Part shown: positions 23,111 to 58,186 of the stretch, piece after piece | Layout: each line of letters begins with the position of its first letter | Position numbering within the stretch: position 1 is the stretch's first letter | NCBI GenBank assembly: GCA_037144045.1 | Contig: JBAWXN010000001.1 | Coordinates: 134,744-198,743 of the forward strand | DNA from: a bacterium | GTDB taxonomy: Bacteria > Patescibacteriota > Minisyncoccia > Phycocordibacterales > UBA1006 | Reading direction: 5' to 3' | DNA length: 64,000 nt | The notes under the pieces: model-generated | What the model saw: only the letters and a program-made list of their open reading frames with translations | Database searches by the model: none | Told to the model about the DNA's origin: nothing | Made by a program: the position numbers and the translations under genes

Positions 23111-23647
23111 TTTACCAAAATGATGAGTAATAGTTGAAATGATAACCGTTACAATTTCATCAGGTGATTGAATTGATGAGTCAAACGTGAGTGGAGAATC
23201 AATCTTGGTTGCATGGTAGGTATCAAAAATTTCTTTGAATTTAGTATGGTCGGTATTTATCTTAACTCCAGGAATGGGGGATGCGATACGCTGGTCAAAT
23301 CGCTCAAGGAGTATTTCCCAAGGTGCAGAAATATTTGCAATAAATAGAGGAATTTGGTGCGTTTGTGACAATGCTACCATTTCATCCAATCCGTAGAGTC
23401 CTCCTTCCTTCATAACTGATAACCCGTGCTCAAGGGCGACACGCATGGTTTCAATAGTCATAATACCTACAAGGTCGTGATGGATGGTGTTGTCATAGTC
23501 AGAAATAAGGCGTTTAATGGTGTCACTTTTTCCTTTGAATATTCCTCCGTATTTTTTGAAGATAATATCAGAAACCGTTGATTTACCACCGCATGATGGT
23601 CCGTGGAGTACGAGGATAAATTGGTTATTAGTAAGTTTTTCTTTCAT
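23108..23647 (-). CDS. P-loop kinase (AAA_33 / zeta-toxin / CPT-like nucleotide kinase fold)
   Basis: Walker A at the N-terminus (LVLHGPSCGGKST), 179 aa, with no other signature. Confidence 0.5.
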   Translation of the reverse strand: MKEKLTNNQFILVLHGPSCGGKSTVSDIIFKKYGGIFKGKSDTIKRLISDYDNTIHHDLVGIMTIETMRVALEHGLSVMKEGGLYGLDEMVALSQTHQIPLFIANISAPWEILLERFDQRIASPIPGVKINTDHTKFKEIFDTYHATKIDSPLTFDSSIQSPDEIVTVIISTITHHFGK

Positions 23648-23758
23648 ATAAGTATTATAACATATGGGATTTTAATCAAATAAGTTTGAATAGGGATATA
23701 TTGACAATTATAAATAATTATGATACAATATTATTATAATTAAATAAAAAAATATCGC

Positions 23759-24145
23759 ATGAAACCATTTGATCCTGAGTTACAGAAATTACTAGTAACA
23801 CCTATTACTCAATCGCGTATATCACCAAGTAGAGAAGTGGTTGGTTTTTCATTTAATATCAAACTTCGTAAAAGCAAAATTGGCTGTATTTATTCAGAAG
23901 AGTCGCTTGAAGATGAGAGTGACATGGAAGATTTTATGGCTTGGGAAAAAATTCTGGCTAAAAAATTGTTTGATATAAACGGAGTAGTAGGATTAACTTT
24001 TGAACCATACGAAATTAGTGTTCAGTTACACTCATCATTTAATCCTGAAAAGATTGAGATTGAAGCAAAGAGGGTTATTGAAAGTTATTTCGTTAATATA
24101 GAAAAAACTAAAAAACCTAATTTTGTGCCTTTTTCACCAAATTAG
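23759..24145 (+). CDS. Hypothetical protein
   Basis: 128-aa ORF preceded by a near-consensus promoter (TTGACA, N17, TACAAT at about 23702-23730) and followed by a terminator. Confidence 0.45.
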   Translation: MKPFDPELQKLLVTPITQSRISPSREVVGFSFNIKLRKSKIGCIYSEESLEDESDMEDFMAWEKILAKKLFDINGVVGLTFEPYEISVQLHSSFNPEKIEIEAKRVIESYFVNIEKTKKPNFVPFSPN

Positions 24146-24166
24146 TATTTTCTACAAAGTAATATT

Positions 24167-24190
24167 AGCCGAGGAAACTCGGCTTTTTTG
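24167..24190 (+). terminator. Rho-independent terminator
   Basis: AGCCGAGGAAACTCGGCTTTTTTG. Confidence 0.75.
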
Positions 24191-24222
24191 TTACTTAAAT
24201 TATGGTTTAGTGATGTTATACT

Positions 24223-24582
24223 GTGTTAATTATGAAAACTACTAAAAAAGCATTGCCGGCAAAAGATTCAAAAAAATTAATTGAAGTATTAAGGGGGCGA
24301 TTTGAAAAAAACATGCATCGCCACAAAGGGTTCAAATGGGAACGTGTTCAAGAAAAACTTGAATCGCAATCAGGTAAGTTATGGTCAGTTTATCAAATGG
24401 AACAAACCGGTGGGGAACCTGATGTAATTGGATATGATAAGAAGGTGGGTGAATTCGACACGAAAACTTCAAGCTGGATTGTGACCCCTCCTGAAATCCG
24501 TAAACTCGGCGGTGCCATCTTTGCAGATCGTCGGTATGATACTTTTTTTGCCTGTGCAATTGGTTTGAGAACTTTCGTGTAG
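24223..24582 (+). CDS. Hypothetical protein (possibly a truncated member of a conserved DUF)
   Basis: 119 aa. The motif MEQTGGEPDVIGYD looks conserved-family-like, but I cannot place it with confidence. Confidence 0.35.
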   Translation: MLIMKTTKKALPAKDSKKLIEVLRGRFEKNMHRHKGFKWERVQEKLESQSGKLWSVYQMEQTGGEPDVIGYDKKVGEFDTKTSSWIVTPPEIRKLGGAIFADRRYDTFFACAIGLRTFV

Positions 24583-26112: not shown

Positions 26113-27042
26113 ATGTCATTTCAAACAGACGCAAAACGAATATTACGATGGGGACTTATTAGTTTCTATCGAAACACGGTGGTATCAATTACCTCGATTT
26201 TAATGATGACGGTAACGCTTACCGTTATTGGGATGACGATTTTCCTTAATGCTATTTTAGGATTTTCGCTTGCACAAATTGAAAGTAAAGTAGACGTGAA
26301 TGTGTATTTTTATCCGAACGTTGCAGAATCACAGATTGGTGACGTGAAAAGTATGATTCAACAGTTGCCAGAAGTTGCAAGTGTTGAATATGTAAGTCAG
26401 GATCAGGCGCTTGCTGATTTCAAGGCGCGACACAGTGCTGATGCGCTTACATTGCAGGCATTAGACGAATTAGGAACTAATCCATTGGGTGCCGTACTTA
26501 ATATTCGGGCTAAGGAAGCAGGGCAATATGAATCTATTGCAAAAACATTGGATGATAATTCAAGTCTTGCAAAAGGATCAAATGCAATTATTGAAAAAGT
26601 GAACTATGCACAAAACAAGGAAATCATTGATCGCCTTACCGGAATCATGCGTTCTGTACAGCGGTTAGGGGTAGCAATCACGTTATTCTTCGTAATTATT
26701 TCTATTTTGATTACGTTTAACACGATTCGCCTTGCTATTTACATGGCACGCGATGAAATTACGAACATGCGCCTTGTAGGTGCCGAGAATAAATATATTC
26801 AAGGACCATTCATGATTGAAGGAGTGGTATATGGAGGAATTGCTTCCGTCATCACCTTGATTCTGTTCTATCCGATTACACTATGGCTTACTAATAATAC
26901 CCAAGCATTCTTTGGGGGTATGAGTATTCTGCAGTATTACGGAGACAACTTTATCCAATTATTTGCCATCTTACTTGTTTCAGGGGTGCTCATTGGAATG
27001 ATCTCCGCCTGGTTTGCAATTCGCAAGTATTTGAAGAAATAA
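26113..27042 (+). CDS. ftsX: Cell division permease FtsX
   Basis: Four-TM topology with a large periplasmic loop, immediately downstream of ftsE. Confidence 0.85.
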   Translation: MSFQTDAKRILRWGLISFYRNTVVSITSILMMTVTLTVIGMTIFLNAILGFSLAQIESKVDVNVYFYPNVAESQIGDVKSMIQQLPEVASVEYVSQDQALADFKARHSADALTLQALDELGTNPLGAVLNIRAKEAGQYESIAKTLDDNSSLAKGSNAIIEKVNYAQNKEIIDRLTGIMRSVQRLGVAITLFFVIISILITFNTIRLAIYMARDEITNMRLVGAENKYIQGPFMIEGVVYGGIASVITLILFYPITLWLTNNTQAFFGGMSILQYYGDNFIQLFAILLVSGVLIGMISAWFAIRKYLKK

Positions 27043-27045
27043 TAT

Positions 27046-27069
27046 AAAAACTCCCAATGGGAGTTTTTA
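27046..27069. terminator. Bidirectional terminator
   Basis: AAAAACTCCCAATGGGAGTTTTTA. Confidence 0.8.
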
Positions 27070-27399
27070 TATTTTACGAATTTCAATTCCGACGACTCCG
27101 TGCTGCGCTTCTTCGTGGGGTGGATAGTACTTATGCATTTCAGTGGGATCATCATTTCCAACACCTCCAAAAGCGATTGGATCGAATGCCTTATATAAAT
27201 CTTTAAAAGTAGGGAAGTAGTGCAATGCGATAATTGTAGAATCTATACTTAGATGGGCGTCTTGAGCATGCACAAAAACAATAGTGTCACCTACAGTTAG
27301 TTGCTTTCTTTTTTCATCATTCAGGCGAATTTCAATAACCTTAGTTCCTTCTTGAATTTTCTGAAAAGGGGCAGGTTGTAAATGCATGGTATGGATCAT
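27067..27399 (-). CDS. ASCH (PUA-like) domain protein
   Basis: 110 aa. PFQKIQEGTKVIEIRLNDEKRKQLTVGDTIVFV fits the ASCH beta-barrel signature. Confidence 0.5.
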   Translation of the reverse strand: MIHTMHLQPAPFQKIQEGTKVIEIRLNDEKRKQLTVGDTIVFVHAQDAHLSIDSTIIALHYFPTFKDLYKAFDPIAFGGVGNDDPTEMHKYYPPHEEAQHGVVGIEIRKI

Positions 27400-27556
27400 A
27401 ATTGCTGCGATGTCTGGTCTTGAAACTAATCACACCAGATGTCATAAGGGTATTCTAGCACTTTCCCGTTTTCCAAACTAACGGCTTTGGGTCTATATAT
27501 AATAAAAGCCCTTTGTAGCATAAACATATAATCAAATATTTGATACAATGTGATAC

Positions 27557-28084
27557 ATGAAATTAGGAAGTGATACAAAGGAACGGCTCAAGCAGATCGT
27601 CAGGAACGCGGTAGCGCTCGACCCCATGATTTCCCTGCGAGACCTCCAAGCGGTGCTTCTCCAGAAAGGCATCAAGATCGGCAACCTCAATTCACTGGCA
27701 AGGATCAGGAAAGAACTGACCGAAGATGCCATAGAAGAAATGGATCGGCCGCAAGTGCTTAAGCGGTATGCAGATATGGAGGAACGGATGCGAGTGCTCC
27801 GAACGGAGCTCTTCAAGATTATCTACCCTGACGGCAAGAGCGGTGTCTATCCGAGCTACAGCGAACAGATATCTGCGATGAAGATATTGATGGAAAGCGA
27901 TATCAAGCTCTTCCGTGCGGGTCTTGAGATGGGTATCTATCGGAAGGACATGGCGAAAGGAAAGAAGTATACGAAAGAGGAAGAGTTGGCGATGCGGAAT
28001 AGGCCGTTGAACGCTGAGCATAGGAAAGCTATGCTAAAGGCATTCAAGAACTTTGGATTGATTCCGAAGGATGCGGAGATATAA
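27557..28084 (+). CDS. Hypothetical protein in a GC-rich islet (about 50% GC versus about 38% background)
   Basis: 175-aa charged helical protein. Its GC content is clearly higher than the flanks. No known motif. Confidence 0.5.
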   Translation: MKLGSDTKERLKQIVRNAVALDPMISLRDLQAVLLQKGIKIGNLNSLARIRKELTEDAIEEMDRPQVLKRYADMEERMRVLRTELFKIIYPDGKSGVYPSYSEQISAMKILMESDIKLFRAGLEMGIYRKDMAKGKKYTKEEELAMRNRPLNAEHRKAMLKAFKNFGLIPKDAEI

Positions 28085-28085
28085 A

Positions 28086-28115
28086 AAAGGCGATCATTGC
28101 TGACCGCCTTTATAA
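28086..28115. terminator. Bidirectional terminator between convergent genes
   Basis: AAAAAAGGCG atcattgctgac CGCCTTTATAAAA. Confidence 0.65.
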
Positions 28116-28127
28116 AATAGTGAACAT

Positions 28128-30248
28128 TTAAATTGTTCGCGTGTACTCTGTAAGTTCCTCAAAATTTTTAAAGTGAACATTTATACCAAGTTCTTCCTGG
28201 ATAATTGTATTCGCTTTAGTGATTGCCCTATCCAAATGCGGAACAGGTTCACTTTTCGGAATTTCATGAGACATCGCTTTTAGTTCCTCCCACGTATATC
28301 GTCCGCGGTTTGTCCACCACGGAAGACTCGAAGTGACTCCATACGCCCAATGTTCTCTGCATGATTGCTCAAGCAGATCACGAAGTGCATCAACCTTCTT
28401 GTTGCTTGCTGACAAATAACGAAAATCACGATTCAAGTGCAGCAGATGATCGTCTGGGAGAAGTTCAATATATTTGAAATTCCCATTTTTCTCATCAGGA
28501 GCATTTTTTGCAATCCGATAGCGGCTGCTTTTAATTGTCAGAATCGAGTCTCCGTACTTTTCAATAAATGAAAGCCACTTGAGCGTTTGATGCAAGGGTT
28601 CACCAGGCAATCCCACAATAATGAATATGTGAGTATGAATTCCTGCATTTTTTAAATTAGCAAGAATCTTTCCATAGTGATCTGGCTTGTTCCAACGCTT
28701 ATTCTCATTACCAAGCGTTTGAGTGTCCAGACTTTCCAATCCAATTTGCAAACCACGACAACCGGCATCATATAATTGATGACAGACATCAGGATCAAGT
28801 AAGTGGTGATCAGCTGTACTGTAGCAATACCATTCGGCTTTGTATCTATGAACTTTCAATTCTTCCCCAATTTTAAGCTGGGTTTGTATCGGAAGAATTT
28901 CATCGTAGAAATCAAAGCGGTGTCCGTTTGAAGCGATCATTTGCGAAACAATGTGTTTTGCAGATGAGGTTCTTGGCTTCCCAAGAAAAGTATCACTTCC
29001 TCCAGAAATCGAACAGAACTCGCATTGCATAAAGCAATTTGAAGCAGTGTAGAGTGGATAGACAGGCTCGGGAGACCATTGCGTTGCTCCCCCATCGTAT
29101 GAGGGCGTAGGCAGTAACTCAAATGGCATCGGAGTTTTGGCAGGCTTGTTCATCACAAGCTTTTTTCCGTCGCTCCAGACAGTACCAGAAGTAAGATTAG
29201 GTGAAAGATTTTCCGCCAGTTCAAGAATAGGTAGAAAGCCTTCCCTGTATACAATTGCGTCACAACAACGATTGAACAACTCAAAGAATTGCGGTTCGTT
29301 ATATGCTGTCAGTATGCGTGACCAGAAATTGCCCCCAAGGACAATCTTAGTCTCCGGTAAAGCCTCCTTGACCATAGAGGCAAGAATGAGTCCGGGAAAC
29401 AATTGCCGCTCGTCACCAATACTGATTCCATACAAATCGGGTCTGAATGAAAGGAGGTGCGGAATCTCGAGTGCGGTGAAATAGGGATACCAAATATTTG
29501 ATTCTCTATTATTTAGCGCGTTGAGAGCACCCTCAATCGTTCCGTCCTGATAGCTTGCCACATACACTACATTATTCCTTTCAACAGCAAACTTGTCTTG
29601 GGTGGGTACGCTTTTTGAAATTTCTTCAAAAAGTTTTCGAGCCCTATACCAATCATTAATCGTACTGTTCGGGTTTCTGACAATCCTTAATGCTTCAGCG
29701 GTTTTGCTTTTATCGTGAAGAGAAAGTAAGTACTCCAATCCAATAATATGGCCGTATCGTTGCGATACTTCATAATCGCCTTGCCGTAAAAGCGAGGTCA
29801 GATAAGAAATTCCGCTTGGGAAATGCCAAGGCGAAGATACTGGTGGATTGTTGAGAATAATTCTCCGCGATCTTCCAGCAGGAATGATAACAGCTAAAGA
29901 AAACTTTTCCGGTTTAAGGTACTCAATTTTCTTCAAATCAATTTTGATCTTCTTAATGGGAGTCACAGGATGACTAGGTAGGTTTGCGCCATACTCTGGC
30001 TGACCTCCAATAATCACTTCTTGTACTCCAGTGAAGATAATCTTGCCGTTACTAATCGAACCTTGTTCGCCAGTCTCCGGAACATAGTAGGTGTAAAAGC
30101 CGTGAAGCTTTCCATGGGTGTCTATGGTGAATGATGTCTCGGTTGAAAAACCGAAGCTACTCGCCAAAAACAACAACATAAGTGCAAATATTCCGACACC
30201 TTGTATCGTACTCTTTGCTTTTCGGTAAAGTTGAGATTTCGGTTTCAT
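28128..30248 (-). CDS. B12-binding radical SAM protein with an N-terminal membrane anchor and a long C-terminal extension
   Basis: N-terminal TM/signal segment (GIFALMLLFLASSFGFS). B12-binding-like segment (ILNNPPVSSPWHFPSGISYLTSLLRQGDYEV ... KIVLGGNFWS). Radical SAM CxxxCxxC (SNCFMQCEFCS). About 230-aa extension after the core. Total 706 aa. Confidence 0.7.
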   Translation of the reverse strand: MKPKSQLYRKAKSTIQGVGIFALMLLFLASSFGFSTETSFTIDTHGKLHGFYTYYVPETGEQGSISNGKIIFTGVQEVIIGGQPEYGANLPSHPVTPIKKIKIDLKKIEYLKPEKFSLAVIIPAGRSRRIILNNPPVSSPWHFPSGISYLTSLLRQGDYEVSQRYGHIIGLEYLLSLHDKSKTAEALRIVRNPNSTINDWYRARKLFEEISKSVPTQDKFAVERNNVVYVASYQDGTIEGALNALNNRESNIWYPYFTALEIPHLLSFRPDLYGISIGDERQLFPGLILASMVKEALPETKIVLGGNFWSRILTAYNEPQFFELFNRCCDAIVYREGFLPILELAENLSPNLTSGTVWSDGKKLVMNKPAKTPMPFELLPTPSYDGGATQWSPEPVYPLYTASNCFMQCEFCSISGGSDTFLGKPRTSSAKHIVSQMIASNGHRFDFYDEILPIQTQLKIGEELKVHRYKAEWYCYSTADHHLLDPDVCHQLYDAGCRGLQIGLESLDTQTLGNENKRWNKPDHYGKILANLKNAGIHTHIFIIVGLPGEPLHQTLKWLSFIEKYGDSILTIKSSRYRIAKNAPDEKNGNFKYIELLPDDHLLHLNRDFRYLSASNKKVDALRDLLEQSCREHWAYGVTSSLPWWTNRGRYTWEELKAMSHEIPKSEPVPHLDRAITKANTIIQEELGINVHFKNFEELTEYTRTI

Positions 30249-30405
30249 TATTTGAAGATTTTTTGTTAGTGAACATTTTTCGCATTATAACATAAATCAC
30301 TATCTGTTTCAAGGCTTCTGCGACCTCTGGTAGATTAACTTCCTTCTTAAAATTTGTGTAGTTGACTCTTCGACTCTTCTGCTCCGTATCTCTCTTCTCG
30401 CTAGA

Positions 30406-30461
30406 CTTCGTACATCGTTCCGGTATGTTCGTGTGTATGGACCAAACAACGATGTACGGAG
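30406..30461 (+). promoter_or_regulatory. 14-bp inverted repeat (1 mismatch) upstream of the recombinase gene; candidate recombination or regulatory site
   Basis: CTTCGTACATCGTT (30406-30419) ... AACGATGTACGGAG (30448-30461) with a 28-nt spacer. The 10-bp core GTACATCGTT / AACGATGTAC is perfect. Confidence 0.4.
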
Positions 30462-30472
30462 CCCAAATAGGC

Positions 30473-31759
30473 ATGACACCGGTACTACAGGCGGAACCAA
30501 TCCGATACTGCCTCTACGCCCGTAAATCAAGCGAGGCCGAAGAGAAGCAGGCACTCTCGATTGATTCTCAAATAAAGGAAATGCTTGCAATTGCCCAGCG
30601 CGATAACTTGAACATCATAGAGATGTATCGCGAATCTCACTCCGCGAAAGACTGCGGGCAACGGCCTGTGTTCAACAAACTGCTCATCGACATTCGCGAG
30701 GGAAAGTTTGACGGCATACTTGTCTGGCACCCCGACCGACTTTCACGAAATGCCGGAGATCTCGGAGCAATTGTTGATCTACTCGATCAGAAGAAATTGA
30801 TTGAGATCAGGACTTATAGCCAACGGTTCACCAATAATCCAAATGAAAAGTTTCTACTCATGATTCTCGGCTCACAAGCTAAGCTCGAGAATGATAATAA
30901 GAGCATCAATGTGAAGCGAGGATTGAAAACAAAATGCGAGATGGGACTGTGGCCGAGTGTCGCACCAACCGGATATTTAAACTCAAAGAATAGAGATCAG
31001 AAAGGCGTCATTTTTGTAGACCCGGATCGTGGATCAACAATCAAAGAAATCTTTACTCGAGTCGCCTATCAAGGAGCAAGCGGTAGAAAAATCTTCAAAT
31101 GGTTACGGGAAATCAAATTTGTAACGCGAACCGGAAAACCTCTGACCTTGAGCAATATCTACGTTATTTTGAATAATCACTTTTACCACGGCACATTTGA
31201 GTACCCTAAAGCGAGCGGTCGATGGTTTAGGGGTAAGCATGTACCACTAATTACTAAAGAGCTATTTGATGAGGCGCAAAAACAACTTCAATTACAAAGA
31301 AAAGTTAGAGGCAAGAATAAGGAGTTCGCTTTTACCAAACTCATGTCTTGCGGCCTTTGCGGATCTGGTATCACCGCTGAAGAGAAGTATAAAAATCTTA
31401 AAGATGGATCAGTGAACAAATATATTTATTATGGTTGTACACGTGCGCGAGATTCAAACTGCAAGGGTGGGTATGTTGAAGAAAAAGTATTGATTGCTCA
31501 ACTACTTGAGTTGATGGATAAGATTGATCTTGATAAGTCGGGTATCAAGAAAAAGCTTGAGGTGGAAATTGAGCGGCACAAGAAATTTCATTCAGGGATC
31601 ATGGGCAAACCAAACGCTGAATACTATGTCAAAGATGTAGACATACGAAATTATGCGAAATATCTTTTATCCGATGGTTCAATGTTTGAGAAGCGAGACT
31701 TACTTACTTGCCTGAAGAGCAGACTCTCTTTAGAGAATAAAATACTCACTTTAAATTAG
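30473..31759 (+). CDS. Large serine recombinase (resolvase/invertase catalytic domain + recombinase domain + zinc ribbon)
   Basis: YCLYARKSS (catalytic Ser), HPDRLSRNAGD, a central recombinase domain, and Cys pairs (CGLCGS ... CTRARDSNC) for the zinc ribbon. About 48% GC. Start at Met 30473; the ORF track starts at 30362. Confidence 0.88.
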   Translation: MTPVLQAEPIRYCLYARKSSEAEEKQALSIDSQIKEMLAIAQRDNLNIIEMYRESHSAKDCGQRPVFNKLLIDIREGKFDGILVWHPDRLSRNAGDLGAIVDLLDQKKLIEIRTYSQRFTNNPNEKFLLMILGSQAKLENDNKSINVKRGLKTKCEMGLWPSVAPTGYLNSKNRDQKGVIFVDPDRGSTIKEIFTRVAYQGASGRKIFKWLREIKFVTRTGKPLTLSNIYVILNNHFYHGTFEYPKASGRWFRGKHVPLITKELFDEAQKQLQLQRKVRGKNKEFAFTKLMSCGLCGSGITAEEKYKNLKDGSVNKYIYYGCTRARDSNCKGGYVEEKVLIAQLLELMDKIDLDKSGIKKKLEVEIERHKKFHSGIMGKPNAEYYVKDVDIRNYAKYLLSDGSMFEKRDLLTCLKSRLSLENKILTLN

Positions 31760-32664
31760 TGACCTGCGAGAAGTTTGGCAAGCTCAAATATTATTCCTTG
31801 AGCAATAACATTCCCAGCAACTCCTTCAAAGATAGTCTTTAAAGAAGTCAGTGCTATCTTGATTTTTGACTGCTCAGGGAGGTCTTTAGACATTTCTTCC
31901 TTTAGTTCCCTTGCTAGGGTTTGAACATTCTCTGTTTCTTCTACTTGTAGTTTTATCTCAGGAAGAAATTTTTGTATCTGATTCACTAAATCAATCACTT
32001 TTTCTTGAGAAAATCCGTTTGCTTGCTGGATGGAAACATTCGCCTGGTCACTAATACTTCCAATCGTTCCGGCAAAATTTTCTATATGACCAATACTATA
32101 ATTTGTATTAGCAATTTGAGCTTTCTCCTTATCTGTCTGGGAAAAAGAAATACCTTCTCCAACAACCCCTGCTTTTTCAAGTTTTAGAGCCGTATCTAGG
32201 ATGCGATTACGCACAGCATCTAATATCCCCGTAACAGCACTCCTGCCGATCATAAATCCTACATTCGTTTCGTGACCAATTGATTCCATAATGCTTTTCT
32301 TTACTGCATTACTGTAGCTGATTTCAAAAGTGCTAGAATCTGTTTTTACAAGATCATCAAGTTGTCCTACAGGTGAAGTGAGACCTCTTTTCGACATAAG
32401 CTCTCCAGCTTCAGAGTTACCAAATATAATAGGTTGCCAACCGTGATATGGATTCCACGCTTTCGGTTCTCCAGTAATGATCCGATACTCAGGGAGATCT
32501 GCATTGGAAGGAGCATCATAACCATTTAGCTCTTTTTCTATCCAATCACCAAATTCAGTTAAATCAAGTTTAACAGCAACAATTTTTGCTTTTCTTAGCA
32601 AGTCTGAAACCGAGTTGGTGGTATTTGCAGCTTCACTTTGTAATTCTTGGATTATTGATGACAT
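31756..32664 (-). CDS. AbiTii-like abortive-infection protein (putative)
   Basis: N-terminal MSSIIQELQSEAANTTNSVSDLLRKAKIVAVKLDLTEFGDWIEKELNGY matches my recollection of the AbiTii N-terminal signature. The C-terminal half is helical/coiled-coil. Start moved to the internal Met (32664), because the ORF track extension overlaps a tRNA. Confidence 0.35.
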   Translation of the reverse strand: MSSIIQELQSEAANTTNSVSDLLRKAKIVAVKLDLTEFGDWIEKELNGYDAPSNADLPEYRIITGEPKAWNPYHGWQPIIFGNSEAGELMSKRGLTSPVGQLDDLVKTDSSTFEISYSNAVKKSIMESIGHETNVGFMIGRSAVTGILDAVRNRILDTALKLEKAGVVGEGISFSQTDKEKAQIANTNYSIGHIENFAGTIGSISDQANVSIQQANGFSQEKVIDLVNQIQKFLPEIKLQVEETENVQTLARELKEEMSKDLPEQSKIKIALTSLKTIFEGVAGNVIAQGIIFELAKLLAGH

Positions 32665-32709
32665 GTTATTTTTTGACCCCTCTAGGTCCTTCGATACTAA
32701 ACTAAACTG

Positions 32710-32780
32710 CTGCCAGACTTGGACTCGAACCAAGATAAACGGTACCAGAAACCGTTGTCCTACCATTAGACGATCTGGCA
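32710..32780 (-). tRNA. tRNA-Gln (anticodon CUG)
   Basis: Minus-strand cloverleaf TGCCAGATCGTCTAATGGTAGGACAACGGTTTCTGGTACCGTTTATCTTGGTTCGAGTCCAAGTCTGGCA plus discriminator G. Anticodon loop TTCTGGT. Its 3' end faces the recombinase islet. Confidence 0.85.
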
Positions 32781-32907
32781 ATGGTTCCAAAATAACCCAG
32801 AAGGGAATATATCAGAATTGCTCGGACAGTATAGTACCTTTTGATAAAAAATCAAATGTGTGCTATAGTATAATCCAATTTGTTCATAAAAATCCCTTTG
32901 AGTACGC

Positions 32908-33276
32908 ATGAAAAAATCCCTTTTATTGGCGATAGTAACTATCGTATCTGTGGCTACCTATGCCCAAACATTTTACAGCGGTAAGTATCGCAATTTATTT
33001 TATGACTTGCCAGCCATGGATTGTAGTAAGCACCTTTGCAGAGCAACTGCCGCAGTTGATAGTTTTAAGTATGTAATACAAGGATTCCGTGATGGCGATG
33101 ATTTTTTGGTAATGAAGCTTTGTAATAAGAAACTTATTGTGATGCAATCATTTTACATGAATGGCGAAAAAAAGCTGGATGATGCTACGGTAGGTGATTT
33201 ATTTAAAGACGATTTTACATTAGATTATTTTTTGGAAACCGTGTTCAATTATTCAATTCCCAAGCGGAAAAAATAG
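32908..33276 (+). CDS. Secreted hypothetical protein
   Basis: Signal peptide MKKSLLLAIVTIVSVATYAQ, 122 aa. Confidence 0.5.
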   Translation: MKKSLLLAIVTIVSVATYAQTFYSGKYRNLFYDLPAMDCSKHLCRATAAVDSFKYVIQGFRDGDDFLVMKLCNKKLIVMQSFYMNGEKKLDDATVGDLFKDDFTLDYFLETVFNYSIPKRKK

Positions 33277-58113: not shown

Positions 58114-58184
58114 TGGGAGATCGTCTAAAGGTAGGACAGAGGCCTTTGAAGCCTTTAATCTAGGTTCGATTCCTAGTCTCCCAG
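58114..58184 (+). tRNA. tRNA-Gln (anticodon UUG)
   Basis: TGGGAGATCGTCTAAAGGTAGGACAGAGGCCTTTGAAGCCTTTAATCTAGGTTCGATTCCTAGTCTCCCAG. Anticodon loop CTTTGAA, T-loop TTCGATTCC, discriminator G. Confidence 0.85.
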
Positions 58185-58186
58185 CA

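What the first reader, a model, noticed from the sequence alone, without database searches (positions are those of the whole stretch)
27400..32790. About 5.3 kb higher-GC islet: serine recombinase + Abi-like gene + B12-radical SAM, next to tRNA-Gln(CUG). Candidate integrative element with defence/modification cargo
The ORF at 27557..28084 is about 50% GC and the recombinase is about 48% GC, against a background of about 38%; the rSAM gene is about 42%. The islet contains a large serine recombinase with a 14-bp inverted repeat immediately upstream of it. It also contains a putative AbiTii-like abortive-infection protein, a 706-aa membrane-anchored B12-binding radical SAM enzyme, and a GC-rich unknown protein. 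The islet abuts the 3' end of tRNA-Gln(CUG) at 32710, a classic integration landmark. The flanking genes (ASCH at 27067..27399, secreted protein at 32908) return to background composition. Cargo of this kind on a small integrative element in a reduced genome is plausibly an undescribed defence or modification module.
Basis: partly seen in the sequence, partly recalled or inferred. Interest (0 to 1): 0.7.

Follow-up and report, generated by a model that had tools for sequence, protein, structure and literature searches.

The report
Serine-recombinase defence islet at tRNA-Gln
This is a 5.3-kb mobile DNA element, inserted by a large serine recombinase exactly at the end of a tRNA-Gln gene in a small-genome (Patescibacteria) bacterium; related copies keep the same ends and recombinase but carry different genes, several of them known anti-phage defence genes.

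Summary
The element runs from 27404 to 32712 (5,309 bp). A 4-bp GCTG core bounds it at both ends. The right-hand core overlaps the discriminator and last two acceptor bases of tRNA-Gln(CUG).

Evidence for insertion and mobility:
- Two related genomes have FtsX, its terminator and tRNA-Gln directly adjacent, so the site is unoccupied there.
- The same four-gene element, 85% identical in DNA, sits in different flanks in other metagenomes. There its recombinase carries a TGA nonsense mutation.
- Sibling elements share the recombinase (80-90% aa identity) and near-identical end sequences. Their cargo is unrelated: AbiEii, Shedu SduA, a PD-T7-1/5-like protein, Hsp70, kinase-like genes.

- There is no long tRNA duplication, only a short core, as expected for a serine recombinase.
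- The GC rise is modest (0.417 against 0.392). It reflects the backbone's own composition.
- The radical SAM gene belongs to a family that is widespread in ordinary chromosomal contexts in Patescibacteria. It looks like captured cargo, not part of a joint module with AbiT.

orf175 stays unassigned. I found no published description of this element family.

The parts
27404..27407 (.). Left junction core GCTG (attL crossover region)
   Evidence: Homology with the second copy (L026-L030) and with siblings starts here. The base before it varies (T/A/G) among independent insertions.
27408..27500 (+). Conserved non-coding left-end block. It holds a hairpin-capable imperfect palindrome at 27409-27443, the invariant motif TGTCATAAGGGTATTCTAGCA at 27440-27460, and ACGGCTTTGGGTC at 27481-27493.
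   Evidence: The block is nearly invariant in siblings whose orf175 proteins are only 45-56% identical. The motif occurs once in the window, against 0 expected. The hairpin is present in all 15 siblings with different arm sequences. Read on the - strand, the motif is TGCTAGAAT. Reading that as an outward-facing extended -10 promoter is inference.
27521..27549 (+). Promoter-like site for orf175 (TAAACA-17-TACAAT with TG). It predicts a leaderless transcript starting at the ATG at 27557.
   Evidence: The TTGATACAAT sequence is conserved in siblings.
27557..28084 (+). orf175, the conserved backbone gene at the left end. It is an all-helical protein of unknown function and a candidate DNA-binding or directionality factor.
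   Evidence: It has 11 close homologues, and a profile search finds 237 cluster representatives. In every long context it lies at the left end of a recombinase element. The AlphaFold model has pLDDT 88.7, but no significant fold or family match was found.
28085..30330 (-). Cargo slot 1. It holds the 706-aa radical SAM gene (28128-30248), its promoter-like site (30312-30284, TTGAAA-17-TATAAT) and a terminator-like hairpin (28086-28111).
   Evidence: Backbone homology with siblings stops at 28084 and resumes at about 30330.
30331..31759 (+). Recombinase module: a conserved upstream region plus the large serine recombinase (probable start 30437, 440 aa; the ORF is open from 30362).
   Evidence: Pfam finds Resolvase, Recombinase and Zn_ribbon_recom, and PHROG finds integrase at 1.5e-68. 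Identity to sibling recombinases is 80-90%. The closest solved structure is the SPbeta integrase SprA/YokA.
30406..30461 (.). 14-nt inverted repeat (30406-30419 / 30448-30461) around the recombinase start
   Evidence: It is not conserved in siblings, so its function is doubtful.
31760..32665 (-). Cargo slot 2. It holds a fused AbiTii + AbiTi-like gene (31756-32664).
   Evidence: The second copy has a different AbiT allele here, 37% identical over the N-terminal domain and with a different C-terminus, although the flanking DNA is 85-100% identical.
32666..32712 (+). Conserved right-end block (GACCCCTCTAGGTCCTTCGATAC at 32675-32697), ending in the core GCTG at 32709-32712 (attR crossover region)
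   Evidence: A 41-bp stretch is 100% identical in L026-L029. The 23-mer is exact in L039, L043 and L044, and sequence diverges right after TGCTG. It occurs once in the window, against 0 expected.
32710..32780 (-). tRNA-Gln(CUG), the integration target. The core overlaps its discriminator and last two acceptor-stem bases, and the gene is intact.
27067..27399 (-). ASCH-domain gene immediately outside the left junction (start codon 4 nt from the core). It is not part of the conserved element and is absent from relatives with the empty site.
58114..58185 (+). Second potential target: tRNA-Gln(UUG) next to dnaX, unoccupied in this genome. Sibling element L044 inserts directly at the tRNA next to a DnaX-like gene; L043 lies about 1.8 kb from it.

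Best explanation
Window 27404-32712 is a 5.3-kb site-specific integrative element of a Patescibacteria genome.

Shown by comparison:
- The backbone has three conserved modules. They are a left end with a ~100-nt non-coding block and orf175, a large serine recombinase with its upstream region, and a ~45-nt right end.
- Two variable cargo slots lie between these modules.
- The element sits exactly at the 3' end of tRNA-Gln(CUG).
- The 4-bp core GCTG is present at both junctions, and the tRNA is intact.
- Here slot 1 carries a membrane-anchored radical SAM enzyme whose relatives are ordinary chromosomal genes of Patescibacteria.
- Slot 2 carries a fused AbiTii/AbiTi abortive-infection gene.
- In sibling elements these slots carry other defence genes.

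Inferred:
- The recombinase recombines attP on a circular form with the tRNA-Gln end (attB). The 2-bp crossover lies within GCTG.
- Excision needs a directionality factor. orf175 is the only conserved candidate.
- Cargo turns over by homologous recombination between the conserved backbone modules.
- Slot 2 is transcribed by read-through from the tRNA-Gln promoter. An outward-facing extended -10 (TGCTAGAAT, - strand, 27452-27460) re-drives the displaced downstream gene (ASCH).
- Transfer between cells is by an unknown route, because the element has no conjugation, replication or capsid genes.
For: Unoccupied sites. In L002 and L005 (FtsX 83% and 77% identical), the FtsX stop, the terminator hairpin and the tRNA-Gln(CUG) 3' end lie within 35-53 bp. 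SpoU and TrpS follow as in the window. The window has 5.67 kb in that gap.

Second copy elsewhere. L026-L030 carry AbiTii, the recombinase, the rSAM gene and orf175. They are 85% identical over window 27403-31765 and have a 41-bp block 100% identical to 32672-32712. They sit between other genes (BacA, RsmE; a diversity-generating retroelement in L027) and have no tRNA.

Family.
- L039, L043 and L044 have orf175 homologues (56/47/45% identical) and recombinases 90/84/80% identical. They share the same left block and the exact right-end 23-mer, but their cargo is unrelated.
- L044 and L052 also abut tRNA-Gln genes.
- The flanks after TGCTG in L026 and L043 resemble a tRNA T-arm end (..AGAACC).

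Defence cargo in siblings: AbiEii and Shedu SduA in L043, and a PD-T7-1/5-like protein plus weak, sub-threshold HEPN matches in L039.

The recombinase is intact and has all three domains.

Backbone composition is independent of host GC. Composition is anomalous in this window.
Against: - No excised circle, attP junction or empty-site read from the same population was seen, and I could not search reads.
- The empty-site relatives also lack ASCH, so the 5.67-kb difference is not a single clean insertion. The junction between the FtsX terminator and ASCH has no GCTG core.
- Dyad symmetry of the reconstructed attP is weak, 16-19 of 43 positions.
- The conserved ends extend further from the core than I recall for typical serine-integrase attP sites, about 50 bp (my own knowledge, not tested here).
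- One lineage of the element (L026-L029) has an inactivated recombinase, so copies can become fixed.
- The role of orf175 is unsupported by any homology.
Confidence: 0.85

Rival explanations
1. It is a fixed relic. The element arrived by recombinase-mediated integration but no longer moves in this genome. The locus is now just a strain-variable island next to the tRNA.
For: The L026-L029 lineage carries the same element with a TGG-to-TGA nonsense codon in the recombinase, seen in several samples. L052, L014 and L039 show decayed ends or recombinase remnants. An identical left junction occurs in a contig from a public sequencing run (L001, SRR12676975; the window's own source is unknown).
Against: In this window the recombinase ORF is full length, with all domains and the conserved catalytic region. 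Both ends are intact and close to the family consensus.
Confidence: 0.25
2. It is a minimal phage satellite or a stripped-down prophage relative. orf175 acts like a small terminase or packaging specificity factor, the conserved left block serves as its packaging site, and a helper phage moves the element.
For: Siblings with the same left-end block have, in the position of orf175, proteins that match PHROG small terminase (L055 at 1.3e-18, L056 at 8e-7). L062, an IMG/VR contig, combines the same block and recombinase with a ParB-methyltransferase, a small terminase and a large-terminase-like gene. orf175 is all-helical, with weak and non-significant resemblance to small terminases.
Against: orf175 shows no detectable homology to those terminase-like proteins (hhalign probability below 1%) or to any PHROG. 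No replication, capsid or regulatory module is present. The end motifs are absent from the viral contig collection, apart from L062.
Confidence: 0.15
3. The radical SAM enzyme, AbiT and orf175 work together as one undescribed defence or modification system.
For: They are adjacent on one element and co-occur in the second copy. Slot 1 in siblings holds defence-type genes such as AbiEii and an Hsp70 gene next to an HTH gene.
Against: Homologues of the rSAM gene at 50-77% identity lie in ordinary chromosomal neighbourhoods without AbiT, orf175 or a recombinase. orf175 occurs with entirely different cargo. The AbiT slot changed allele independently of the rSAM gene. PADLOC has no match for the rSAM protein.
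Confidence: 0.07
4. It is an ordinary variable chromosomal region with no mobile element, and the composition differences are chance.
For: The gap between FtsX and tRNA-Gln holds various ordinary genes in other relatives, such as a GT2 glycosyltransferase and a membrane-protein ORF I took by eye for DedA-like (not scanned). The overall GC rise is small.
Against: The boundaries are precise and conserved. The same ends and recombinase recur in five or more unrelated contexts, and the strongest tetranucleotide deviation of the window is here.
Confidence: 0.02

Closest known systems
SCC / SCCmec-like cassettes of staphylococci (Ccr large serine recombinases), including cassettes that carry defence genes (PMC11470126)
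   Same: These are small cargo cassettes without transfer genes of their own. A large serine recombinase moves them into the extreme 3' end of a conserved RNA-related gene without destroying it. They carry anti-phage defences. The best NCBIfam match of the recombinase here is CcrB.
   Different: The target here is tRNA-Gln, not rlmH. There is one recombinase, not CcrAB. The size is 5-8 kb, not 20-60 kb. The host phylum differs. The CcrB score is 137 bits against a cut-off of 900, so this is not a Ccr orthologue. The conserved orf175 and left-end block have no SCC counterpart that I know of.
Tycheposons of Prochlorococcus (bioRxiv 10.1101/2020.12.28.424599)
   Same: Both are small cargo-carrying elements that integrate at tRNA genes of streamlined genomes. 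Both build variable islands, with the newest material next to the tRNA. Both have PICI-like and cargo-only relatives and leave decayed remnants.
   Different: Tycheposons use tyrosine recombinases (474 of 501) and are flanked by partial tRNA copies. Here a large serine recombinase leaves only a 4-bp core.
Temperate-phage serine integrases (SPbeta SprA, A118, TP901-1)
   Same: They share the same three-domain recombinase architecture. SPbeta SprA/YokA is the closest solved structure, at 1.8e-14. The best PHROG match is integrase. The short crossover core is the same kind of feature.
   Different: No phage genes accompany the recombinase here. The target is a tRNA 3' end, which is unusual for this class as far as I know (my own knowledge, not tested).
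Lactococcal AbiT (abiTi + abiTii)
   Same: The slot-2 protein matches Pfam and PADLOC AbiTii over its N-terminal 186 residues. It matches PADLOC AbiTi over residues 207-297.
   Different: Here the two parts are fused in one 302-aa ORF. The sibling copy has the AbiTii domain with an unrelated C-terminus.
Class B (cobalamin-dependent) radical SAM enzymes (PhpK, HpnR/HpnJ, AprD4-type)
   Same: The protein has a Radical_SAM core with CxxxCxxC. It gives weak matches to PhpK-family, RiPP C-methyltransferase, HpnJ, HpnR and AprD4 models. AprD4 is the only PDB match.
   Different: All scores are far below the family cut-offs. The protein has an N-terminal hydrophobic anchor and a ~100-aa extension. 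It belongs to a clade of 84 proteins; the ones a source names are mostly Patescibacteria, plus one named Woesearchaeota. The function of this clade is unknown.

Membership tests
Large serine recombinase (serine integrase) | N-terminal resolvase-type catalytic domain with the serine-containing motif | tested here: met
   Pfam Resolvase at 3.8e-25 over residues 51-195. The YCLYARKSSEAEEKQALSIDSQ motif is conserved in all siblings.
Large serine recombinase (serine integrase) | C-terminal recombinase domain plus zinc-ribbon domain | tested here: met
   Pfam Recombinase at 7.1e-15 and Zn_ribbon_recom at 2.4e-7, both above their gathering scores.
Large serine recombinase (serine integrase) | Catalyses attP x attB recombination with a 2-bp staggered crossover | not testable with these tools
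   Only the shared 4-bp core at both junctions is seen.
Site-specific integrative element (genomic islet) | Unoccupied target site in related genomes | tested here: met
   In L002 and L005 the FtsX terminator and tRNA-Gln(CUG) lie 35-53 bp apart. These relatives also lack ASCH.
Site-specific integrative element (genomic islet) | Same element with the same ends in a different genomic context | tested here: met
   L026-L030. Siblings L039, L043, L044 and L052.
Site-specific integrative element (genomic islet) | Excised circular form or attP junction | not testable with these tools
tRNA-targeting island of the tyrosine-integrase type (Islander / tycheposon type) | Tyrosine integrase, and a displaced partial tRNA copy of tens of bases at the far end | tested here: not met
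   The recombinase is of the serine type. No repeat of the tRNA end was found beyond TGCTGC.
SCC-type cassette | Ccr-family recombinase and insertion in rlmH | tested here: not met
   The CcrB model scores 137 bits against a cut-off of 900. The target is tRNA-Gln.
AbiT abortive-infection system | AbiTii domain | tested here: met
   Pfam PF18864 at 155.8 bits against a cut-off of 27.6. PADLOC AbiTii at 1e-47.
AbiT abortive-infection system | Separate abiTi partner gene, and an abortive-infection phenotype | tested here: inconclusive
   There is no separate gene. The C-terminal residues 207-297 match PADLOC AbiTi at 2.3e-9, so the protein appears to be a fusion. The phenotype cannot be tested here.
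Cobalamin-dependent (class B) radical SAM | Radical SAM core with CxxxCxxC | tested here: met
   Pfam Radical_SAM at 39.3 bits against a cut-off of 29.5. The CFMQCEFC motif is present.
Cobalamin-dependent (class B) radical SAM | N-terminal B12-binding domain | tested here: inconclusive
   There is no PF02310 hit in this protein. Class-B NCBIfam models match far below their cut-offs. A few homologues have PF02310 on record.
Phage satellite (PICI-like) | Packaging (small terminase) and replication modules in addition to an integrase | tested here: not met
   orf175 has no terminase match, and there is no replication gene in the 5.3 kb. Siblings L055, L056 and L062 do have small-terminase-like genes.

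The most novel reading that the evidence does not exclude
The family is a dedicated expression-and-exchange platform for defence cassettes in Patescibacteria.
- Insertion at the tRNA-Gln end places slot-2 cassettes under the tRNA promoter.
- The invariant left-end block provides an outward promoter and a strand-specific hairpin. These act in regulation, or in packaging by a helper phage, which would make the elements minimal phage satellites.
- The radical SAM enzyme in slot 1 is a new anti-phage effector recruited from a housekeeping family.
Probability: 0.15. Interest if true: 0.75.

Novelty: new variant of a known kind. Interest (0 to 1): 0.5.

Why it matters
Patescibacteria have tiny genomes and very few recognised mobile elements. 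How they acquire and exchange anti-phage genes is poorly known.

This locus defines a compact and precisely bounded element family:
- one serine recombinase;
- one small conserved gene;
- two cargo slots;
- a tRNA-Gln target.

Relatives of the element carry AbiT, AbiEii, Shedu and a PD-T7-1/5-like protein.

That has three practical uses.
1. The conserved ends and the recombinase can serve as bait for new defence genes in an uncultured phylum.
2. The data give a candidate attP/attB pair for a serine integrase with a tRNA target.
3. Metagenomic read data could test whether such elements are active.

The kind of element is known. What is new is the family and its host range.

Tried and rejected
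- **Direct repeat of the tRNA-Gln 3' end.** I found none beyond TGCTGC. The left end resembles the tRNA end at only 17 of 29 positions by my own hand alignment, which I treat as not significant.
- **Structured RNA in the left-end block.** Rfam finds nothing but the tRNA. RNAalifold gives no consensus structure on either strand. Single-sequence folds do show a hairpin in every sibling that is always more stable on the + strand. I did not make a structure-aware alignment, so this stays unexplained.
- **End motifs in viral contigs.** There were 0 hits for either long motif. The 16-mer gave 37 hits, roughly what I would expect by chance from a rough estimate of the collection's size; only L062 is a true sibling.
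- **Dyad symmetry of the reconstructed attP.** It is weak.
- **The 14-nt inverted repeat at the recombinase start.** It is not conserved in siblings.
- **ASCH as part of the element.** I rejected this. The flank of the second copy also encodes an ASCH-domain protein, but the two proteins are not alignable. Homology between the copies stops exactly at the core.
- **Conserved neighbours of the rSAM gene that might hint at its function.** There are none across five contexts.

Full report
**What is in the sequence**

The region holds, from left to right:

| Feature | Coordinates | Strand |
|---|---|---|
| ASCH-domain gene | 27067-27399 | - |
| orf175 | 27557-28084 | + |
| 706-aa radical SAM (rSAM) gene | 28128-30248 | - |
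| Large serine recombinase (LSR) ORF, probable start 30437 | 30362-31759 | + |
| AbiTii-family gene | 31756-32664 | - |
| tRNA-Gln(CUG), 3' end towards the islet | 32710-32780 | - |

The recombinase has all three domains, Resolvase, Recombinase and Zn_ribbon_recom. Its best PHROG match is integrase, and its closest solved relative is the SPbeta integrase. The AbiT protein matches AbiTii over residues 3-186, and its C-terminus matches PADLOC AbiTi, so it looks like a fusion. orf175 matches nothing in four profile libraries.

**Composition**

The window is 0.395 GC.

| Region | GC |
|---|---|
| orf175 (GC3 0.63; the highest 528-bp stretch of the window) | 0.491 |
| rSAM gene | 0.421 |
| Recombinase ORF (not 0.48; only its 5' part reaches 0.50) | 0.425 |
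| AbiT (background) | 0.381 |
| Whole islet (top 5% of 5.3-kb windows) | 0.417 |

The clearest signal is tetranucleotide usage. The 5-kb windows starting at 27001-27501 correlate 0.835-0.844 with the whole window, against about 0.93-0.97 away from the islet. GC skew also falls from about +0.1 to about 0 across 27-33 kb.

**Host and empty sites**

A scan for relatives of the flanking FtsX protein returned Patescibacteria genomes. In them the order FtsE-FtsX-[gap]-SpoU-TrpS is conserved, but the gap varies.
- In L002 and L005 the FtsX stop codon, a terminator hairpin and the 3' end of tRNA-Gln(CUG) lie within 53 and 35 bp.
- In the window the orthologous terminator (27041-27073) and the tRNA end (32709) are 5.67 kb apart.
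- Other relatives have different genes in that gap: a GT2 glycosyltransferase plus a membrane-protein ORF that looks DedA-like by eye (not scanned), or an unknown 436-aa protein.
- One relative (L014) has a C-terminal remnant of a related recombinase directly after FtsX.

**A second copy elsewhere**

The closest rSAM homologue (93% identical) led to contigs L026-L030. They carry AbiTii, the recombinase, the rSAM gene and orf175 in the same order.
- BLASTN gives 85% identity over window 27403-31765, plus a separate 41-bp block that is 100% identical to 32672-32712.
- The flanks are unrelated to the window (BacA and RsmE; a reverse transcriptase with bAvd in L027). No tRNA is present.
- Alignments of both junctions show that homology starts at (T)GCTG|CGATG on the left and ends at ..CTAAAC TGCTG| on the right.
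- The AbiT gene between the conserved recombinase end and the 41-bp block is a different allele. It is 37% identical in the AbiTii domain and has an unrelated C-terminus.
- The recombinase of these copies carries a TGG-to-TGA nonsense codon in the GILVWHPDRL motif in all four contigs that cover it.

**A family with exchangeable cargo**

orf175 has few close homologues. In every long context it lies at the left end of a unit with the same recombinase.

| Locus | Left-end gene | Slot 1 | Recombinase | Slot 2 |
|---|---|---|---|---|
| L039/L040 | orf175 homologue | two unknown genes and an HTH gene | LSR | two 321-aa genes |
| L043 | orf190 | AbiEii, an unknown gene, an Hsp70 gene, an HTH gene | LSR | 106-aa gene and Shedu SduA |
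| L044 | orf181 | two APH-type kinase-like genes | LSR | 447-aa gene, then tRNA-Gln(UUG) |

PADLOC confirms AbiEii and SduA, and finds a PD-T7-1/5-like protein in L039. Another L039 gene gives only weak HEPN matches, below Pfam's cut-offs.

The recombinases are 90, 84 and 80% identical to the one in the window. The orf175 homologues are only 56, 47 and 45% identical.

BLASTN against the siblings splits the window element into modules:
- three conserved modules at 27403-28084, about 30330-31759 and 32666-32712;
- two variable slots at 28085-30330 and 31760-32665.

**The ends**

*Right end.* The 23-mer GACCCCTCTAGGTCCTTCGATAC occurs once in the window against 0 expected. It is exact in L026-L029, L039, L043 and L044. 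In every case it is followed by ..ACTA(A/G)A(C/T)TGCTG, and then the sequence diverges.
- Two of the right flanks are tRNA-Gln ends, CUG in the window and UUG in L044.
- Two others (L026, L043) resemble a tRNA T-arm end (..AGAACC).
- L052, a decayed sibling, also abuts tRNA-Gln(CUG).

*Left end.* The base before GCTG varies among insertions, so the shared core is GCTG. This core overlaps the discriminator and the last two acceptor-stem bases of the tRNA. The tRNA is intact.

Core to core, the element measures 5,309 bp in the window, 5.5 kb in L026, 6.1 kb in L044 and 8.3 kb in L043. A short core without a long tRNA duplication is what a serine recombinase leaves.

**The left-end non-coding block**

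About 100 nt between the core and the orf175 promoter are far better conserved than orf175 itself. A metagenome scan with the invariant 21-mer found 11 more loci, and a viral-contig scan found one more, L062.

In these loci the first gene after the block varies:
- an orf175 homologue;
- a DUF5681-like protein;
- a protein matching PHROG small terminase (L055 at 1.3e-18, L056 at 8e-7).

L062 adds a ParB-methyltransferase, a small terminase, a large-terminase-like gene and a KAP-like NTPase to the same block and recombinase.

The block has these parts:
- A hairpin-capable palindrome (27409-27443). All 15 siblings have one, with different arm sequences. It is always more stable on the + strand because of G·U pairs.
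- The invariant motif.
- A GACC..GGTC-like motif that is also present at the right end.

RNAalifold found no consensus structure on either strand, and Rfam found nothing. On the - strand the invariant motif reads TGCTA(G/A)AAT, which fits an extended -10 promoter pointing out of the element. This is my inference and is not tested.

That reading would fit three observations:
- Genes start 0-25 nt outside the left core in the window (ASCH), L050, L048 and L026.
- In relatives without the element, a co-oriented ORF starts 15-25 nt after the tRNA-Gln end.
- In the window AbiT starts 45 nt after the tRNA with no terminator between them.

The orf175 promoter-like site (27521-27549) predicts a leaderless mRNA.

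**The cargo**

The rSAM protein has a Radical_SAM core and weak matches to class-B families (PhpK, HpnJ/HpnR, AprD4). All fall far below the family cut-offs. One search returned 84 homologues; the ones a source names are mostly Patescibacteria, plus one named Woesearchaeota.

Homologues at 50-77% identity lie in ordinary chromosomal neighbourhoods. They have no conserved neighbours and no recombinase. I therefore read the rSAM gene as a chromosomal-family gene that the element captured. It has its own strong promoter-like site at 30312-30284. Its presence in a slot that elsewhere holds defence genes is suggestive, but it is not evidence of a defence role. PADLOC has no match for it.

**orf175**

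**Composition across hosts**

The backbone genes keep the same GC in hosts of 0.335 to 0.443 GC. orf175 homologues are 0.44-0.49 and the recombinases 0.40-0.46. The element is a higher-GC islet only relative to this host.

**Other target in the window**

tRNA-Gln(UUG) at 58114-58185, next to dnaX, is followed directly by a terminator and GrpB, so it is unoccupied. L044 inserts directly at a tRNA-Gln(UUG) that sits next to a DnaX-like gene. L043 lies about 1.8 kb from its copy of that tRNA.

**Literature**

Three full-text searches found no description of serine-recombinase elements at tRNA-Gln in Patescibacteria. The nearest described kinds are:
- SCC-like cassettes that carry defences (PMC11470126);
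- tycheposons;
- serine-recombinase-marked defence loci.

Absence from this library is not proof that the family is undescribed.

**Verdict**

The kind of element is known. The family, its tRNA-Gln target, its two-slot layout and its conserved left-end block appear to be new. Current mobility, the role of orf175, the function of the rSAM enzyme and the function of the left-end block remain untested.

Noticed in passing
window 58114-58185: tRNA-Gln(UUG) next to dnaX is followed directly by a terminator and a GrpB gene. Sibling element L044 inserts directly at a tRNA-Gln(UUG) next to a DnaX-like gene, and L043 lies about 1.8 kb from one. So the window contains an unoccupied second target.
   Followed up: partly
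L026 3190-3200 (also L027, L028, L029): The recombinase of the second copy has a TGG-to-TGA nonsense codon in the conserved GILVWHPDRL motif. It is identical in contigs from several samples, so this is an inactivated and apparently fixed copy.
   Followed up: yes
L027 593-1973: A diversity-generating-retroelement pair (reverse transcriptase plus bAvd) lies next to the AbiT side of the second copy. L026 has other genes there. The two contigs diverge about 28 nt beyond the core, which suggests a further rearrangement hotspot.
   Followed up: no
window 27397-27407; L050 and L048 left junctions; L026 6603-7037: A start codon on the - strand lies 0-4 nt outside the left core in three independent insertions. 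In both the window and L026 the gene just outside the core is an ASCH-domain protein, yet the two proteins are not alignable.
   Followed up: partly
window 27409-27443 and the same position in 14 sibling loci: The hairpin next to the crossover core has different arm sequences in different subfamilies. It is always more stable on the + strand (1-6 G·U pairs against 0-1). No explanation has been tested.
   Followed up: partly
L014 10930-20930: In a more distant relative, FtsX is followed by a 138-aa C-terminal remnant of a related recombinase. After that come ORFs that, read by eye and not scanned, look like a P-type metal ATPase and a CsoR-like repressor, plus a ParB-methyltransferase and a small HTH ORF resembling those of L062. 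No tRNA-Gln is present. This looks like a larger decayed island at the same locus.
   Followed up: no
L062 (IMG/VR contig, 13.5 kb): This contig has the same left-end block and a related recombinase. It also has a ParB-methyltransferase, a small terminase, a large-terminase-like gene, a KAP-like NTPase and a helicase-like gene, but no capsid genes on the contig.
   Followed up: partly
L001 end = window 27726: An identical contig from SRR12676975 breaks inside orf175, in the GC-richest stretch. This may reflect strain heterogeneity or a drop in coverage at the element.
   Followed up: no
L006, L008, L009 between FtsX and tRNA-Gln: A co-oriented membrane-protein ORF that looks DedA-like by eye (not scanned) starts about 15-25 nt after the tRNA-Gln 3' end in L006 and L009. 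This suggests co-transcription of the tRNA with the downstream gene at this locus.
   Followed up: no
window 23400-24400: This is a low-GC stretch (0.285-0.32) upstream of the tRNA-Glu/FtsE region, and the lowest in the 20-40 kb profile.
   Followed up: no
rSAM family (P0001-P0084): This is a clade of 84 B12-rSAM-like proteins of 580-720 aa; the members a source names are mostly Patescibacteria. Many have an N-terminal hydrophobic anchor. They have no conserved neighbours and no assigned function. One member is labelled Woesearchaeota.
   Followed up: partly
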